Assembly (NCBI GenBank): GCA_949106495.1
Contig: CARYZD010000005.1
Coordinates: 32,945 to 96,944, forward strand
Length of the DNA stretch: 64,000 nucleotides
Origin: an uncultured Clostridia bacterium
Lineage (GTDB): Bacteria > Bacillota > Clostridia > TANB77 > CAG-465
Reading direction: 5' to 3'
In this document: positions 13,445-21,689 of the stretch, piece by piece
How the letters are laid out: each line of letters begins with the position of its first letter
How positions within the stretch are numbered: the first letter of the stretch is position 1
Notes under the pieces: model-generated
The model's database searches: none
The model's input: the letters and a program-made list of their open reading frames with translations, nothing else
Told to the model about the DNA's origin: nothing
Translations under genes and position numbers: made by a program

Positions 13445-14521
13445 ATGATAACAACTAGTTTATGTATGATTGTAAAAAATGAGGAAAAAGTATTAGAAAG
13501 ATGCTTAAATTCAGCAAAAGATATTGTTGATGAAATAATTATAGTAGATACTGGTTCAACTGACAAAACTAAAGAAATAGCAAATAAATTTACAAGTAAA
13601 GTTTATGATTTTAAATGGATTGACGATTTTGCAGCTGCAAGAAATTATTCATTTTCAAAAGCTACTAAAGACTTTATTTTATGGTTAGATGCAGATGATG
13701 TAATTTTAGATGAAGACAAACAAAAATTTATAGATTTAAAGAATTCATTAAATTCATCTATAGATATTGTAATGATGAAATACAATGTTGGATTTGATGA
13801 AAATGGTAATGTAAATTTTTCATATTATAGAGAAAGACTAATAAAAAGAGAAAAAAACTATAAATGGGAAAGTCCAATACACGAAGTTATTGTTCCAAGT
13901 GGTAACTTATACTATTCAAATATTTGTATAACACATAAAAAAGAAGAAACTAAATACTCAAAAAGAAATCTTGAAATATTTGAAAAACTACTATCTAAAA
14001 ATATTGAGCTTGATGCAAGACAACTATATTATTATTCAAGAGAATTAATGTATAATTCTCAATATGAAAAAGCAATATCATATTTTAATATATTCTTAAA
14101 TAATAAGAACGCATGGATAGAAAACAAAATAAATGCATGTATAGATTTAAGTAATTGTTATAAAGAAATTGGAAATAATGAAATGGCCATCTCTTCCCTA
14201 TTTCGTTCTTTTGAATATGATACTCCTAGAGCTGAAATATGTACAAATATAGGAATATATTTTATGGAGAAAGAAAACTATGAACTTGCAATCTATTGGT
14301 TTAAACAAGCAACTAGAATAAAACCAAATTTACAAAGTGGTGCTTTTGTACAAATAGATTATTACAAATATATTCCATATCTTAATATTTGTGTTTGTTA
14401 TAATAGACTTGGAAAAGATAAAATTGCATGTAAATATAATGAAAAAGCTGGAAAATTTAAGCCAAACAGCATTGCATATAAAAATAATAAAGAATACTTT
14501 AAAAAAATAAAAATTTGTTAA
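13445..14521 (+). CDS. family 2 glycosyltransferase with C-terminal TPR repeats (spore-surface protein glycosylation type)
   Basis: N-terminal GT-A pattern (CMIVKNEE...IIIVDTGSTDKT...DADD). The C-terminal half looks like TPR-like repeats. Sits immediately upstream of a collagen-like protein gene. Confidence 0.75.
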   Translation: MITTSLCMIVKNEEKVLERCLNSAKDIVDEIIIVDTGSTDKTKEIANKFTSKVYDFKWIDDFAAARNYSFSKATKDFILWLDADDVILDEDKQKFIDLKNSLNSSIDIVMMKYNVGFDENGNVNFSYYRERLIKREKNYKWESPIHEVIVPSGNLYYSNICITHKKEETKYSKRNLEIFEKLLSKNIELDARQLYYYSRELMYNSQYEKAISYFNIFLNNKNAWIENKINACIDLSNCYKEIGNNEMAISSLFRSFEYDTPRAEICTNIGIYFMEKENYELAIYWFKQATRIKPNLQSGAFVQIDYYKYIPYLNICVCYNRLGKDKIACKYNEKAGKFKPNSIAYKNNKEYFKKIKIC

Positions 14522-15934
<1,413 letters not shown>

Positions 15935-19095: not shown

Positions 19096-19123
19096 GAGAG
19101 GACTTATAGGTCCTCTCTTTTAT
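19096..19123. terminator. bidirectional intrinsic terminator between convergent porB and aroF
   Basis: Hairpin gagaggac-ttatag-gtcctctc with T-runs on both strands. It overlaps the aroF stop. Confidence 0.6.
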
Positions 19124-20136
19124 ATTATTCTATCTACAGACTCAGCAATAGGTCTTAATCTATTAACTATATCATCATACATATCTGGTGTAATTGATTG
19201 CTTTCCATCACACAATGCTTTCTCAGGATTATTATGCACCTCAATAATAAGTCCATCTGCTCCAATTGCAACTGCAGCTTTGGATAAAGGTTCAACCATC
19301 CATCTTAAACCTGCTGCATGACTTGGGTCAACGATAATAGGTAAATGACTCAATTTTTTAATCATTGGAATTGCTGATATATCTAATGTATTTCTTGTGG
19401 TTGTTTCATATGTTCTTATCCCTCTTTCGCAAAGAATAACATTTGAATTTCCTTCAGACATAATATATTCTGCAGACATTAACCATTCTTCTATTGTTGC
19501 TGCAATTCCTCTTTTTAAAAGAATTGGCTTATTTAACTTTCCGGCTTTTTTTAATAAATCAAAATTTTGCATATTTCTTGCACCAATTTGTATAACATCT
19601 ACATCTTTTTCAAAGACTTCTAAATCATCTATAGACATGAGTTCTGTTACAATCTTAAGTCCTGTTGCCTCTCTTGCTTTTTTTAGCATTTCTAATCCTT
19701 CATATTTTAATCCTTGAAAAGCATATGGAGAGGTTCTAGGTTTGAATGCTCCACCTCTTAAAAATTTAGCACCACTTGCTTTTACTTTTTTTGCAATTTC
19801 AATTACTTGTTCCTCACTTTCTACAGAACAAGGACCAGCAATCATCATTAATTTTCCATTACCAATTATTACTTCATCACCTATTTTTATAACTGTATCT
19901 TCTGGATGAAATTTTCTACTAGCTCTTTTATATGCTTCTTTAACAACACATACATCTATAACTCCGTCTAAATTTTTAATTTTTTCTATATCAATAACTT
20001 TTGTATTTCCAATAGCACCTAGTATTATTTCCTCTTTTGAGGTATTTTCTACAACAGTTAATCCTAACTCTTCTATTTTTTCTTTAATTTCTAAAATAAC
20101 TTTTTCATCTACATCTTTTTTTAATTTAATAATCAT
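19120..20136 (-). CDS. aroF: 3-deoxy-7-phosphoheptulonate (DAHP) synthase, type I-beta with N-terminal ferredoxin-like regulatory domain
   Basis: 338 aa. Core motifs GPCSVES, KPRTSPY and LxDPSH-like (IVDPSHAAG), characteristic of KDO8PS-like DAHP synthases. About 90-aa N-terminal extension. RBS AGGAGG. Confidence 0.85.
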   Translation of the reverse strand: MIIKLKKDVDEKVILEIKEKIEELGLTVVENTSKEEIILGAIGNTKVIDIEKIKNLDGVIDVCVVKEAYKRASRKFHPEDTVIKIGDEVIIGNGKLMMIAGPCSVESEEQVIEIAKKVKASGAKFLRGGAFKPRTSPYAFQGLKYEGLEMLKKAREATGLKIVTELMSIDDLEVFEKDVDVIQIGARNMQNFDLLKKAGKLNKPILLKRGIAATIEEWLMSAEYIMSEGNSNVILCERGIRTYETTTRNTLDISAIPMIKKLSHLPIIVDPSHAAGLRWMVEPLSKAAVAIGADGLIIEVHNNPEKALCDGKQSITPDMYDDIVNRLRPIAESVDRII

Positions 20137-20150
20137 AATAAATTCCTCCT

Positions 20151-20470
20151 ATCAAAAAGAGAGCCTCATAATCAAATGAGACTCTCCATACTATTCATAT
20201 TTTAAGTTTATTTATTGAATATTTTTATATTAGTATTCCGCGGCTAACTAATATCATTTTAATACTCAAATATCATTTTATTGTTACTCATTTGATTAGA
20301 TTGTATGTTTTTTAGGTACGCAAAAAATCTTACGCTAAAATAATAGCCTAAGAATCCAAAGTAAAAATAAAAGTTGTTAACTAATATTTCATTTGCTACC
20401 ATAAAAAACTCTCTCCTTTCTTTCTGAGTAATTTATTCTATATTAACATTACATCAAAAAATTGTCAATA
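20151..20470 (-). promoter_or_regulatory. aroF 5' leader: promoter (TTGACA-17-TAATAT) plus a terminator hairpin immediately upstream of the RBS (candidate attenuator / riboswitch-type leader)
   Basis: On the minus strand, -35 TTGACA (20463-20468) and -10 TAATAT (20440-20445). About 290-nt leader. Hairpin gagagtctcatttgat-tatgaggctctc plus UUUUUGAU ends 1 nt before the AGGAGG RBS. An AUUAGUUAGCCGCGG segment partly resembles a T-box, but no full consensus is present. Confidence 0.4.
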
Positions 20471-20480
20471 CTAATTTTTA

Positions 20481-21689
20481 TCATTTTTTTTCTATTTTAG
20501 TTGTAATAGTACTTGCATAATCTATTTTTGAGCCATAAATTTCTTTAAGTTTATCCATTGTCTTTGTAACTTTTTCCTTCCTTTTGACAATCTCTTTTTT
20601 AGATTTATTTTCTTCAACAATAGAGAAAATATCTAATTGTTCTTGAACATTGTTTTCTTTAAGTCCTGAAACTCCAACACATATATATCTTATACTTGTT
20701 CCATTTGTATAATTATCTTTAAAAAGTTCAATTATATTTTTAGAAATTACATCATAAGCATTAGTATATTCAATTTTTCTTTGTCTAGAATTAGATATAA
20801 AATTACAATCTCTTAAAACAATTGATACAACATTTGCTTTCATATTTAATTTCCTTAATGAAAAAGATACATTGCTTGTTAATTTTAAAAACTCTCTTTC
20901 TATAGCTTCTTTATCTGATATATCTGTTTCAAAAGTTATCCCTTTACTAATACTCTTTCTTTCACTTTTTTCATAATAGTATTTAACAGGCTCATTGTCA
21001 ATACCATTAGAATAATTATATATCTGTTCCCCTAACTTTCCTAAATGTTTTACTATTCTATATTTATTACTATTTGCTAAATCTCCTATTGTTTTAATTC
21101 CTAATTTTTTTAGCTTTTCATTTGTGTTCTTACCAACATATAATAACATATTAACTGGTAAATTATATATTTTTTCTTTATAATTATCATAATCTAGTAC
21201 AGTTATTGCATCAGGCTTTTTTAAGTCGCTTCCAAGTTTTGCAAGTGATTTTGTAAATGATACTCCAACAGAAATTGTTAACCCAAATTTAGATTTTATT
21301 TCTTCTTTAATTTTATATGCAATTTCATATGGACTACCAAATATTGCAGTACTTTCTGTTACATCTAAAAATGATTCATCTATACCAAATTTTTCTACTC
21401 TATCTGTATATTTTCTATATACTTCATTTACAAGTTTAGAATACTTAACATATTCTTCATAATGTGGTTTTAAAAGTACTAAATTAGGACATTTATTTAA
21501 TGCAGAGTATACTGTTTCTGGAGTATAAACACCATATTTTTTAGCTATTTGATTTTTTGCAAGTATTATTCCATGTCTTTTATTTGGATCTCCAGATACT
21601 GCCATTGGAATATTTTTTAGTTCTGGTCTATTTAACATTTCTACAGAAGCAAAAAAATTATTTAAATCACAATGAAGTATAGCTCTCAT
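20481..21689 (-). CDS. dinB: Y-family DNA polymerase (DNA polymerase IV / DinB-like)
   Basis: 402 aa. N-terminus ILHCDLNNFFASVE plus DESFLDV and SVGVS motifs, typical of the UmuC/DinB family. Confidence 0.8.
   Translation of the reverse strand: MRAILHCDLNNFFASVEMLNRPELKNIPMAVSGDPNKRHGIILAKNQIAKKYGVYTPETVYSALNKCPNLVLLKPHYEEYVKYSKLVNEVYRKYTDRVEKFGIDESFLDVTESTAIFGSPYEIAYKIKEEIKSKFGLTISVGVSFTKSLAKLGSDLKKPDAITVLDYDNYKEKIYNLPVNMLLYVGKNTNEKLKKLGIKTIGDLANSNKYRIVKHLGKLGEQIYNYSNGIDNEPVKYYYEKSERKSISKGITFETDISDKEAIEREFLKLTSNVSFSLRKLNMKANVVSIVLRDCNFISNSRQRKIEYTNAYDVISKNIIELFKDNYTNGTSIRYICVGVSGLKENNVQEQLDIFSIVEENKSKKEIVKRKEKVTKTMDKLKEIYGSKIDYASTITTKIEKK

What the first reader, a model, noticed from the sequence alone, without database searches (positions are those of the whole stretch)
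20137..20470. aroF leader with terminator hairpin abutting the RBS: candidate attenuator or riboswitch
On the minus strand a good sigma-A promoter (TTGACA-17-TAATAT) lies about 290 nt upstream of the DAHP synthase start. The leader ends with a strong hairpin (gagagtctcatttgat/tatgaggctctc) plus a U-tract, 1 nt before the AGGAGG. This is the architecture of T-box and other attenuation leaders that control aromatic amino acid genes. The leader contains an isolated GC island (AUUAGUUAGCCGCGGAAUAC) that partly resembles the T-box AAUUAGGGUGGUACCGCGG. The GGGUGG/UGGN element is absent, so the class is unresolved.
Basis: partly seen in the sequence, partly recalled or inferred. Interest (0 to 1): 0.5.

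Follow-up and report, generated by a model that had tools for sequence, protein, structure and literature searches.

The report
Phe/Tyr leader-peptide attenuator of DAHP synthase
The long leader in front of this bacterium's first aromatic-amino-acid gene is not a T-box or riboswitch: it encodes a 47-residue peptide packed with phenylalanine and tyrosine codons, and this most likely lets the translating ribosome decide whether transcription stops at the hairpin, a control device that is widespread but unannotated in Clostridia.

Summary
The class is not T-box or riboswitch; Rfam gives nothing better than E = 4.

It is 30% Phe/Tyr, with 12 of 19 residues in the block FYFYFGFLGYYFSVRFFAY.

Its 3' part (UAAUCAAAUGAG) pairs with the terminator's 5' arm and loop (CUCAUUUGAUUA), forming an antiterminator. 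This pairing shows compensatory changes in sister contigs. A hairpin (P1) inside the ORF presents Phe/Tyr codons in its loop.

The same design precedes DAHP synthase in 51 of 80 other species (Clostridium, C. difficile, Pelosinus, Treponema, Oscillibacter). The design is an aromatic uORF, an in-ORF hairpin, ORF-tail-to-terminator pairing, and a terminator. A covariance model built without the window finds the window's leader at E = 8e-8.

Best explanation: ribosome-mediated attenuation that senses charged tRNA-Phe and tRNA-Tyr.

Precedents are aroR in Corynebacterium and the predicted uORFC-13-1 motif in Acholeplasma. Databases call these peptides "hypothetical". In C. difficile, aroF carries a published but unexplained premature-termination event.

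Verdict: a real attenuator, a new member of a known kind, of moderate interest.

The parts
20440..20468 (-). Sigma-A-type promoter: -35 TTGACA (20468-20463), 17-nt spacer, extended -10 TGnTAATAT (20447-20440). The predicted transcription start is near 20433.
   Evidence: The consensus scan gives 10 of 12 matches with an upstream TG. Both hexamers are invariant in the five-sequence clade alignment, even where the upstream gene differs. The start site is inferred, not mapped.
20425..20431 (-). R1, a candidate anti-antiterminator. The 5'-UTR segment UUACUCA can pair with UGAGUAA (20290-20284), which overlaps the 3' end of R2.
   Evidence: It pairs with probability about 1.0 in the ribosome-free transcript before R3 is made. 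It is part of the clade consensus fold, with one compensatory column. On its own the duplex is weak (-9.5 kcal/mol, p = 0.12 against shuffles). Tentative.
20409..20419 (-). Shine-Dalgarno region of the leader ORF (AAAGGAGAGAG), 6 nt upstream of the AUG.
   Evidence: Read directly from the sequence. All 20 Clostridium-type leaders carry an SD-like purine run (GGAGG, GGAGA or GAGG) a few nt upstream of the ORF start (alignment).
20259..20402 (-). Leader ORF of 47 codons plus stop: MVANEILVNNFYFYFGFLGYYFSVRFFAYLKNIQSNQMSNNKMIFEY.
   Evidence: It has 14 of 47 aromatic residues against 9.6% in the window's proteins. It is the most aromatic of 775 small ORFs in the window. The other two frames carry 7 stops each. 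The identical peptide occurs on 77 metagenomic contigs, with relatives at 71-89% identity. Synteny is the same where the neighbours of those contigs were read.
20316..20372 (-). Regulatory codon block, codons 11-29 (FYFYFGFLGYYFSVRFFAY): 7 Phe and 5 Tyr codons in 19.
   Evidence: Binomial P = 1.6e-8 against the window's aromatic frequency. An equivalent block is present in 51 of 80 DAHP synthase loci from other species.
20328..20353 (-). P1 hairpin inside the ORF: UCUUA-G-GCUA [UUAUUU] UAGC-G-UAAGA. Tyr and Phe codons lie in and next to the loop.
   Evidence: -11.0 kcal/mol, p = 0.01 against shuffles. It is homologous to CUGG-G-GCU[..]AGC-G-CUGG in Clostridium. The inner GGCU..AGCG core is the same and the outer stem differs on both strands (4 bp CUGG/CUGG there, 5 bp UCUUA/UAAGA here). 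Other lineages keep a hairpin at this place with unrelated stems. RNAalifold recovers it.
20287..20298 (-). R2, the antiterminator 5' strand UAAUCAAAUGAG (codons 35-39 of the leader ORF).
   Evidence: It forms 11-12 bp with R3 (-12.3 kcal/mol, p = 0.025 against shuffles). Sister contigs show compensatory changes. The AAUGAG:CUCAUU core is kept across Clostridium-type leaders in three different reading frames.
20227..20254 (-). Clade-specific hairpin carrying the 'GC island': stem AUAUUAGU/ACUAAUAU, loop UAGCCGCGGAAU. It lies between the leader stop codon and the terminator.
   Evidence: The stem covaries in L085 (..AGC/GCU..), L086 and L088 (with G-U pairs). The loop palindrome CCGCGG becomes CCAUGG in L088. 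The hairpin is absent from Clostridium-type leaders. Its role is unknown.
20154..20187 (-). Intrinsic terminator: 5' arm GGAGAGUCUCAU (20187-20176), loop UUGAUU (20175-20170), 3' arm AUGAGGCUCUCU (20169-20158), and a U-run ending at 20154. R3, the antiterminator partner CUCAUUUGAUUA, is 20180-20169.
   Evidence: -18 kcal/mol. A terminator follows the aromatic uORF in 54 of 56 loci. Premature termination in the aroF 5' UTR was observed experimentally in C. difficile 630 (PMC8237595).
19120..20150 (-). The regulated gene: SD AGGAGG (20150-20145) and the DAHP synthase CDS (20136-19120, 338 aa). It has an N-terminal ferredoxin-like regulatory domain and is monocistronic.
   Evidence: Pfam PF00793 (E = 2e-84) plus PF18152. 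A convergent gene and a shared terminator at 19096-19117 close the unit.

Best explanation
This is a ribosome-mediated (leader-peptide) transcription attenuator that ties DAHP synthase expression to the supply of charged tRNA-Phe and tRNA-Tyr.

Transcription starts about 297 nt upstream of the gene. The leader is translated from a strong SD into a 47-residue peptide whose codons 11-29 are mostly Phe and Tyr.

Further along the same ORF, codons 35-39 (R2, UAAUCAAAUGAG) are complementary to the distal 5' arm and loop of the terminator (R3, CUCAUUUGAUUA).

- Scarce Phe or Tyr: the ribosome stalls in the aromatic block, upstream of R2. R2 stays free and pairs with R3 as R3 emerges. The terminator cannot form, and RNA polymerase reads into the DAHP synthase gene.
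- Plentiful Phe and Tyr: the ribosome runs on over R2, so R2 is masked or then recaptured by the refolding 5' domain (R1, P1 and flanking helices). R3 pairs with R4 instead, and transcription ends at about 20154.

Shown here: the ORF, its codon bias, the terminator, the antiterminator with covariation, the P1 hairpin, and conservation of the whole design upstream of DAHP synthase genes.

Inferred: that the ORF is translated, that stalling sets the outcome, the timing, and the roles of P1, R1 and the GC-island hairpin.
For: 1. ORF and codon bias.
- The ORF has a strong SD. It carries 14 of 47 Phe/Tyr residues, 12 of 19 in the block (P = 1.6e-8), and is the most aromatic of 775 small ORFs in the window.
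- The bias is specific to this reading frame.

2. Conservation across species.
- At 6 or more aromatic residues in a 12-residue window, 51 of 80 DAHP synthase loci from other species have such a uORF upstream.
- At 8 or more, the count is 31 of 80, against 0 of 80 for reverse complements and 0 of 400 for shuffles.
- This includes high-GC Oscillibacter, where AT bias cannot explain it.
- Counting the window and its four sister contigs too, 56 of 85 sequences have the uORF, and 54 of those 56 have an intrinsic terminator after it.

3. Antiterminator.
- The duplex between ORF tail and terminator 5' arm beats shuffles at p <= 0.05 in 56% of 54 loci.
- Within the window's own clade the changes are compensatory: L088 AUUCAAAUGAGA:UCUCAUUUGAAU, and L090 CAAUGUGGGA:UCCCAUGUUG.
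- Other lineages use unrelated sequences in the same places: Treponema GUGGAAGUC:GACUUCCAC, and Oscillibacter GGUUUGGCUG:CAGCCAAACC.
- In the 20 Clostridium-type leaders, P1 plus the antiterminator are 95% paired, against 21-47% in slid controls.
- The conserved AAUGAG is read in three different frames, so the constraint is on the RNA, not the peptide.

4. Ribosome masking. In the transcript truncated after the terminator loop, the antiterminator probability is about 0.9 with a ribosome at codons 1-32. It falls to about 0 with the A site at codons 33-43.

5. Family membership. A covariance model built only from other species' leaders finds this leader at 55 bits, E = 8e-8. It is the only significant hit in 64 kb.

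6. Gene association. In Crassaminicella thermophila, two such leaders each head a DAHP synthase gene. One heads a DAHPS-tyrA-aroB-aroA-aroC operon.

7. Experimental support from relatives.
- aroF of C. difficile shows premature termination in a 5' UTR that matches no known riboregulator (PMC8237595).
- The aroR leader (Phe-Tyr-Phe) attenuates aroF in C. glutamicum (PMC11802643).
Against: - There are no expression, 3'-end or ribosome-profiling data for this organism.
- In the window the stop codon lies 24 nt past R2. With a 30-nt footprint, a ribosome sitting at the stop codon no longer masks R2: the antiterminator probability returns to about 0.8-0.9.
- Termination under replete conditions therefore needs either timing (the ribosome over codons 33-43 when R3 emerges) or recapture of R2 by R1 and the 5' domain. 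The R1:R2 duplex is weak here (p = 0.12).
- At equilibrium the full-length leader always folds into the terminator. The switch must therefore be kinetic, which folding programs cannot test.
- Bacillota are classed as having 'runaway' transcription that is insensitive to translation (PMC13323073; Johnson 2020 as summarised in PMC8237595). If that held here, it would work against a ribosome-dependent switch.
Confidence: 0.8

Rival explanations
1. T-box or metabolite-binding riboswitch. The leader RNA itself binds uncharged tRNA or a small ligand, and this stabilises the antiterminator.
For: The overall layout fits: a long leader, a terminator just before the RBS, and an alternative pairing. Aromatic-amino-acid genes in many Firmicutes are under T-box control (general knowledge). 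A T-box is indeed found near, though not in, one related locus (L021, opposite strand).
Against: No Rfam family reaches its threshold, and the permissive scan gives only E = 4 and 4.7 chance hits. The same holds for 20 homologous leaders. The GGGUGG/UGGN T-box core is absent. The conserved sequence is accounted for by an ORF with an SD, a frame-specific codon bias and simple hairpins. The 'T-box-like' GC island is a clade-specific hairpin loop absent from most family members.
Confidence: 0.03
2. Protein-mediated attenuation. A regulatory RNA-binding protein, or a DNA-binding repressor, recognises the conserved hairpin with the palindromic loop (20254-20227) or P1. The ORF would be incidental.
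For: The GC-island hairpin has a covarying stem and a loop palindrome that stays a palindrome (CCGCGG to CCAUGG) in the window's clade. No function in the ribosome model has been assigned to it or to P1.
Against: The GC-island hairpin is missing from most of the family, and L090 lacks its stem, yet the uORF, antiterminator and terminator persist. The enrichment of aromatic codons in frame, across taxa of very different GC content, would be left unexplained.
Confidence: 0.07
3. The ORF encodes a functional small hydrophobic or membrane peptide. The hairpin is then just an ordinary terminator or a partial terminator between two genes.
For: In low-GC members the aromatic block is about 20 hydrophobic residues flanked by Lys/Arg, which resembles a transmembrane segment. 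Gene callers predict the ORF and annotators name it 'hypothetical protein'.
Against: The high-GC versions are too short and too charged for a membrane helix (for example MTAIARTAEYGYFYFSFTKFGKAFRGLAENERV). Residues at the P1 stem positions differ between lineages (WG..SAG, LG..SVR, QS..SFG, SFT..GKA) while base pairing is kept. The C-terminal part is read in different frames. In the loci examined the ORF always lies upstream of DAHP synthase, and its tail pairs with the terminator.
Confidence: 0.04
4. A nascent-peptide arrest sensor. The conserved peptide, together with free Phe or Tyr in the ribosome tunnel, stalls the ribosome (TnaC-like), rather than shortage of charged tRNA doing so.
For: The peptide motif is unusually long and well conserved for a leader peptide (..F-Y-F-x-x-W-G-F-Y-F-S-A-G-Y-F-F-x-K-K..).
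Against: Conservation of the non-aromatic positions is explained by the P1 RNA stem. Synonymous sites are fixed (GGC, AGC, GCU) and the amino acids change wherever the stem sequence changes. A stall induced by free amino acid upstream of R2 would cause readthrough when the amino acid is abundant. That is the wrong direction for a biosynthetic gene.
Confidence: 0.04

Closest known systems
aroR leader peptide upstream of the aroF operon in Corynebacterium glutamicum (Neshat et al. 2014, as summarised in PMC11802643)
   Same: A short translated leader upstream of a DAHP synthase gene, with a Phe-Tyr-Phe pattern. Ribosome stalling at these codons raises transcription of the operon. The window peptide contains FYFYF.
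   Different: aroR is from an actinobacterium and is described as carrying only the FYF motif. Here there are 14 aromatic codons spread over 47, an in-ORF hairpin (P1), and an antiterminator strand about 100 nt upstream of the terminator. No sequence relationship was tested or is expected.
uORFC-13-1 motif (Brewer et al. 2021, PMC8632094)
   Same: Found exclusively upstream of aroF (DAHP synthase). It has a promoter, an RBS, a start codon and a U-run coding for Phe, lies immediately upstream of an intrinsic terminator, and has one extra base-paired element. It was predicted to act by ribosome-mediated attenuation.
   Different: It was reported only from Acholeplasma and environmental sequences (24 representatives) and was not tested experimentally. 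The window comes from a spore-forming Firmicute. I could not obtain the seed alignment, so whether the two are one family is open. No Rfam model matched.
pheL-pheA and pheM-pheST attenuators of Escherichia coli, and the trp operon leader (classical leader-peptide attenuation)
   Same: A leader ORF enriched in codons for the end-product amino acid. Mutually exclusive antiterminator and terminator helices. The position of the ribosome decides between them. Many Clostridium-type relatives also have a classical 'region 1' that sequesters region 2.
   Different: The leader peptide here is three times longer. The regulatory codons are Phe plus Tyr (plus one Trp in Clostridium). In the window the stop codon lies beyond region 2 instead of just before it. 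The 5' partner of region 2 is in the UTR or the first codons, not in the regulatory codons. The hosts are Bacillota rather than Proteobacteria.
T-box leaders (Rfam RF00230)
   Same: The overall leader length, and the terminator/antiterminator logic in front of an amino-acid gene in a Firmicute.
   Different: There is no match to the model, no T-box sequence, and no specifier-loop architecture. The leader contains a translated ORF instead.

Membership tests
T-box leader (RF00230) | Match to the Rfam covariance model at or near its gathering score | tested here: not met
   There is no hit in the window leader at gathering threshold or at E <= 10. There is none in the homologous leaders of 20 loci.
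T-box leader (RF00230) | Conserved T-box sequence (..GGGUGGNACCGCG..) forming the antiterminator bulge that pairs with the tRNA acceptor end | tested here: not met
   Reading of 20137-20470 on the minus strand shows no GGGUGG. The CCGCGG island is a hairpin loop between the leader stop codon and the terminator. It is not part of the antiterminator.
Known riboswitch classes (Rfam 15) | Match to any riboswitch covariance model | tested here: not met
   The only hits are a plant miRNA model and a Salmonella sRNA model, at E = 4 and 4.7.
Ribosome-mediated (leader-peptide) attenuators | A short ORF with SD and start codon inside the leader, upstream of the terminator | tested here: met
   The ORF is at 20402-20259, with AAAGGAGAGAG 6 nt before the AUG. 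It is conserved in sister contigs and in 51 of 80 loci from other species.
Ribosome-mediated (leader-peptide) attenuators | Enrichment of codons for the amino acid(s) made by the regulated pathway | tested here: met
   The ORF has 14 of 47 Phe/Tyr residues against a 9.6% background, and 12 of 19 in the block (P = 1.6e-8). Across loci, 31 of 80 reach 8 or more of 12, against 0 in the controls.
Ribosome-mediated (leader-peptide) attenuators | An intrinsic terminator, and a mutually exclusive antiterminator whose upstream strand is reached by the translating ribosome | tested here: met
   The terminator is shown. R2 (codons 35-39) pairs with R3 with covariation. Masking simulation shows that only ribosomes at codons 33-43 block the pairing.
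Ribosome-mediated (leader-peptide) attenuators | Readthrough depends on translation of the leader and on the supply of the cognate charged tRNA | not testable with these tools
   This needs reporter, term-seq or ribosome-profiling experiments. The only indirect support is premature termination at aroF in C. difficile (PMC8237595).
Clostridial aroF leader family (defined here by model R1) | Match to a covariance model built from 20 leaders of other species (aromatic block + P1 + A-tract + AAUGAG) | tested here: met
   Window 20379-20281 (minus strand) scores 55 bits, E = 8e-8, over the full model length, with the P1 pairs canonical. The next hit has E = 0.58. The model also finds 34 of the other loci.
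Clostridial aroF leader family (defined here by model R1) | Position directly upstream of a DAHP synthase gene, with a terminator in between | tested here: met
   for the window; for relatives.
uORFC-13-1 motif (Brewer 2021) | Match to the published consensus or seed alignment | not testable with these tools
   The supplementary text held for the paper does not contain the alignment. The descriptive features (upstream of aroF, promoter, RBS, Phe-coding U-run, terminator) are all present in the window.
uORFC-13-1 motif (Brewer 2021) | Reported host range (Acholeplasma and environmental sequences) | tested here: inconclusive
   The window encodes AddB, a SpoVB-like protein, an exosporium BclB-related protein and ComEC. 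It is therefore a spore-forming Firmicute, not Acholeplasma. The 'environmental' members of the motif could still overlap with this family.

The most novel reading that the evidence does not exclude
The window leader belongs to a large, so far unannotated family of long Phe/Tyr(/Trp) leader peptides. This family would be the main transcriptional control of DAHP synthase across Clostridia and neighbouring lineages, including C. difficile, where it would explain the orphan premature-termination event at aroF.

Two features could be adaptations that let a ribosome-dependent attenuator work in bacteria where RNA polymerase tends to outrun the ribosome:
- a conserved in-ORF hairpin that displays the regulatory codons;
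- a 30-110-nt delay spacer before the terminator.

If so, the family would make the question of transcription-translation coupling in Clostridia directly testable.
Probability: 0.4. Interest if true: 0.6.

Novelty: new member of a known kind. Interest (0 to 1): 0.45.

Why it matters
Leader-peptide attenuation is textbook in Proteobacteria and documented in Actinobacteria. It is considered rare in Bacillota, which mostly use T-boxes and riboswitches and are classed as having transcription uncoupled from translation.

A conserved, translated Phe/Tyr sensor in front of the first aromatic-pathway gene in many Clostridia would have four consequences:
- It assigns a mechanism to an unexplained premature terminator in C. 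difficile.
- It re-annotates at least 155 'hypothetical protein' clusters as leader peptides.
- It provides a natural reporter for whether ribosomes can influence nascent-RNA folding in these organisms.
- It gives metabolic engineers of Clostridia a lever on flux into the shikimate pathway.

Tried and rejected
- **Rfam scans.** I scanned the whole window at gathering threshold, the leader at E <= 10, and 20 homologous loci. Nothing relevant came up, so I rejected T-box and known riboswitches.
- **Protein family libraries.** Five leader peptides had no match in Pfam or NCBIfam.
- **Literature search for the peptide motif.** Motif strings returned no paper.
- **Equilibrium folding with a ribosome mask.** On the full-length leader the terminator wins at every ribosome position. 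This is uninformative because the switch must be kinetic. I replaced it with folding of the transcript truncated after the terminator loop.
- **A classical 'region 1' in the window.** The only candidate, in the 5' UTR, is weak (p = 0.12). The equivalent helix is strong in many Clostridium-type relatives.
- **Pair counting on the clade alignment.** I did not run the count of structure pairs on the five-sequence alignment. MAFFT puts L090's R2 and R3 out of register, so I used per-locus duplex energies instead.
- **Comparison with uORFC-13-1.** The published alignment is not in the supplement text that is held.
- **Source organism.** Taxonomy is therefore known only as a spore-forming, roughly 25% GC Firmicute seen in metagenome assemblies.
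- **TRAP-like (G/U)AG repeats.** I considered them by eye and found no regular array.
Full report
**Observation.**
- The promoter is TTGACA (20468-20463), a 17-nt spacer, and TAATAT (20445-20440) with an upstream TG. It matches 10 of 12 consensus positions.
- The terminator hairpin is GGAGAGUCUCAU/UUGAUU/AUGAGGCUCUCU (20187-20158; 12 bp, -18 kcal/mol), followed by a U-run ending at 20154.
- The DAHP synthase SD AGGAGG lies at 20150-20145 and the ATG at 20136.
- One small correction: three nucleotides, not one, separate the U-tract from the SD.
- The downstream gene is a DAHP synthase with an N-terminal ferredoxin-like regulatory domain (PF00793 E = 2e-84, plus PF18152). It is monocistronic, closed by a convergent gene and a shared terminator.
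- The leader as a whole is far more structured than shuffled sequence (z = -6.2).

**The T-box/riboswitch reading fails.**
- No Rfam 15 family reaches its gathering score in the leader.
- A permissive scan of 20080-20520 returns only a plant miRNA model and a Salmonella sRNA model, at E = 4 and 4.7.
- Twenty homologous loci from other genomes also have no Rfam hit upstream of DAHP synthase.

- The leader contains a 47-codon ORF (20402-20259). The SD AAAGGAGAGAG lies 6 nt before its AUG.
- It encodes MVANEILVNNFYFYFGFLGYYFSVRFFAYLKNIQSNQMSNNKMIFEY.
- Fourteen of 47 residues are Phe or Tyr, against 9.6% in the window's proteins. Twelve of the 19 residues at codons 11-29 are aromatic (P = 1.6e-8).
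- The other two frames carry seven stops each.
- It is the single most aromatic of 775 small ORFs in all six frames of the window.

**Conservation across species.**
- I fetched 80 genome loci encoding DAHP synthase relatives at 57-65% identity.
- 51 of these 80 have a short ORF 200-330 nt upstream of the gene with at least 6 aromatic residues in a 12-residue window.
- At a threshold of 8 of 12 the count is 31 of 80, against 0 of 80 for reverse complements and 0 of 400 for dinucleotide shuffles.
- The lineages include Clostridium sensu stricto, Clostridioides difficile, Haloimpatiens, Pelosinus, Megasphaera, Vulcanibacillus, Acetobacterium, Treponema and Spirochaetaceae MAGs, Monoglobus, and high-GC Oscillibacter (for example MTAIARTAEYGYFYFSFTKFGKAFRGLAENERV). 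AT-richness therefore cannot be the cause.
- Counting the window and its four sister contigs too, 56 of 85 sequences have the uORF. In 54 of those 56 an intrinsic terminator follows the ORF.
- In Crassaminicella thermophila two such leaders each precede a DAHP synthase paralog. One heads a DAHPS-tyrA-aroB-aroA-aroC operon.
- A profile of the peptides retrieves 155 protein clusters. Every one that carries a name is called 'hypothetical protein'. Pfam and NCBIfam have no family for them.

**RNA anatomy 1: the antiterminator.**
- Codons 35-39 of the leader ORF (R2, UAAUCAAAUGAG, 20298-20287) are complementary to the distal 5' arm plus loop of the terminator (R3, CUCAUUUGAUUA, 20180-20169). The duplex is -12.3 kcal/mol, p = 0.025 against shuffles.
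- Sister contigs carrying leader peptides 71-89% identical keep the pairing through compensatory changes. L088 has AUUCAAAUGAGA:UCUCAUUUGAAU. L090 has CAAUGUGGGA:UCCCAUGUUG, with a matching change in the terminator's 3' arm.
- Across the wider set, the ORF tail pairs with the terminator's 5' half better than shuffles at p <= 0.05 in 56% of 54 loci.
- Some lineages use completely different sequences in the same places: Treponema GUGGAAGUC:GACUUCCAC, Oscillibacter GGUUUGGCUG:CAGCCAAACC, and Monoglobus AAAGCCCG:CGGGCUUU.
- In Clostridium-type leaders the conserved AAUGAG is read as N-E, as M-S, or overlaps the stop codon. The constraint is therefore on the RNA, not the peptide.

**RNA anatomy 2: the P1 hairpin.**
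- A hairpin lies inside the aromatic block: UCUUA-G-GCUA[UUAUUU]UAGC-G-UAAGA (20353-20328), at -11 kcal/mol and p = 0.01.
- Clostridium has CUGG-G-GCU[..]AGC-G-CUGG, with the same inner core and a different outer stem.
- Acetobacterium, Oscillibacter, Peptoniphilaceae and others have unrelated stems at the same place, always with Phe/Tyr codons in the loop.
- P1 beats shuffles at p <= 0.05 in 37 of 56 loci.
- The amino acids at the stem positions change with the stem sequence. This explains the apparent peptide conservation.
- RNAalifold on 20 Clostridium-type leaders predicts exactly P1 plus the antiterminator. Those pairs are 95% formed, against 21-47% when slid.

**RNA anatomy 3: a covariance model finds the window.**
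- I built a model from those 20 leaders, none from the window's clade.
- It finds the window leader over the model's full length at 55 bits, E = 8e-8. This is the only significant hit in 64 kb.
- It also finds 34 of the other loci.

**Mechanism.**
The best-supported reading is classical ribosome-mediated attenuation that senses charged tRNA-Phe and tRNA-Tyr.
- I masked a 30-nt ribosome footprint on the transcript truncated after the terminator loop.
- With no ribosome, or with a ribosome at codons 1-32 (which includes the whole aromatic block), the antiterminator has probability about 0.9.
- With the A site at codons 33-43 the probability falls to about 0.
- So a ribosome held back at Phe/Tyr codons leaves R2 free to capture R3, and the polymerase reads through. 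A ribosome that proceeds over R2 lets the terminator form.

**Weak points of the mechanism in the window.**
- The stop codon lies 24 nt beyond R2, so a terminating ribosome no longer covers R2. Termination must then rely on timing or on recapture of R2.
- Before R3 is transcribed, the ribosome-free RNA folds into a rod. In it the 5'-UTR segment UUACUCA (20431-20425) pairs with UGAGUAA (20290-20284) at probability about 1. That duplex alone is weak (p = 0.12).
- Many Clostridium-type relatives have a strong classical 'region 1' at codons about 3-9. One example is CUUAUUAGAAAAGAA:UUCUUUUCUAAUGAG at -18 kcal/mol. In all, 18 of 54 loci reach p <= 0.05. There the antiterminator forms only when ribosomes occupy the 5' end of the ORF. 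This suggests that ribosomes queued behind the stalled one do the masking.
- At equilibrium the full leader always folds into the terminator, so the switch is kinetic.
- These timing arguments, and the roles of P1 (perhaps a pause or synchronising hairpin) and of the spacer, are inference.

**The 'GC island'.**
- It is the loop (UAGCCGCGGAAU) of a hairpin (20254-20227) between the leader stop codon and the terminator.
- Its stem covaries within the window's clade, and the loop palindrome CCGCGG becomes CCAUGG in L088.
- It is absent from most of the family.
- I could not assign it a role.

**Comparison with what is known.**
- An experimentally supported precedent is aroR, a Phe-Tyr-Phe leader peptide that attenuates the aroF operon of Corynebacterium glutamicum (PMC11802643).
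- Brewer et al. 2021 predicted a uORF attenuator, uORFC-13-1, exclusively upstream of aroF in Acholeplasma and environmental sequences (PMC8632094). Its description fits this leader, but I could not obtain its alignment.
- The window comes from a spore-forming Firmicute (AddB, SpoVB-like, exosporium BclB-related, ComEC), not from Acholeplasma.
- Fuchs et al. 2021 list aroF among 17 premature-termination events in C. difficile 5' UTRs that match no known riboregulator (PMC8237595). The C. difficile leaders in my set (L009, L056) carry the same uORF, P1, antiterminator and terminator. This gives experimental support for terminator use in a homologue, and shows the mechanism was unassigned there.
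- Searches for the peptide motif, and for leader-peptide or attenuation terms combined with Clostridia and aromatic genes, found no other description. The searchable library is incomplete.

**Verdict.**
The class is a leader-peptide attenuator, not a T-box or riboswitch.
- It is a new member of a known kind. It belongs to a widespread family that databases leave unannotated.
- Interest is moderate. The mechanism is textbook, but a conserved ribosome-dependent attenuator is unexpected in Bacillota. That phylum is classed as having 'runaway' transcription insensitive to translation (PMC13323073; Johnson 2020 as summarised in PMC8237595).
- The family offers a direct test of coupling, and it explains an orphan terminator in a pathogen.

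Noticed in passing
window 20227-20254 (-): A hairpin with a covarying stem has the conserved palindromic loop UAGCCGCGGAAU (CCGCGG becomes CCAUGG in L088). It lies between the leader stop codon and the terminator. It is specific to the window's clade and has no assigned role; it might be a pause signal, a protein site or a kissing loop.
   Followed up: partly
window 20409-20419 and 20154-20165 (-): In the minimum-energy fold of the full-length leader, the leader's own SD region (AAAGGAGAGAG) pairs with the terminator's 3' arm and U-tract (CUCUCUUUUU) while R2 pairs with R3. Readthrough transcripts might therefore shut off further translation of the leader. This could also be a generic purine/pyrimidine match.
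   Followed up: no
L091 and L092 (Crassaminicella thermophila CP042243, 1039100-1057667): There are two DAHP synthase paralogs, each with its own aromatic leader peptide (P0020, P0010), flanking the trp operon. The second heads a DAHPS-tyrA-aroB-aroA-aroC operon. A gap of about 600 nt before trpE may hold a separate regulator.
   Followed up: partly
window 33427-35136 (-) and 35988-38006 (-): Two neighbouring paralogous ORFs (569 and 672 aa) match the first AAA+ module of ClpA/ClpB and, more weakly, FtsH. This is an unusual architecture, with a tRNA-Gln gene nearby (32937-33011).
   Followed up: no
window 13445-15934 (+): A SunS-like glycosyltransferase gene is followed by a collagen-like, exosporium BclB-related glycoprotein gene. 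This suggests a spore-surface glycoprotein locus.
   Followed up: no
window 22928-23212 (-): A 94-aa ORF just downstream of smc carries an RNase III domain (Pfam hits listed for the identical gene in L081). That is far shorter than canonical RNase III. It may be a Mini-III-like enzyme or a fragment.
   Followed up: no
window 19096-19117 (+): A G+C-rich hairpin flanked by T-runs lies between the convergent DAHP synthase gene and a TPP-enzyme (2-oxoacid:ferredoxin oxidoreductase beta-like) gene. It is probably a bidirectional terminator.
   Followed up: no
L021:1724-1926 (-): A bona fide T-box (139 bits) lies on the opposite strand upstream of the Clostridium mediterraneense aroF leader. It serves a divergent gene, not DAHP synthase.
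   Followed up: no
Clostridium-type leaders, e.g. L002, L004, L013: An A-run (Lys-Lys, AAAAAA) directly after the aromatic block is highly conserved in low-GC members, including the window (CUAAAAAAC, 20315-20307). It could pair with U-runs, act as a slippery or slow-translating site, or be a peptide feature. Unexplained.
   Followed up: no
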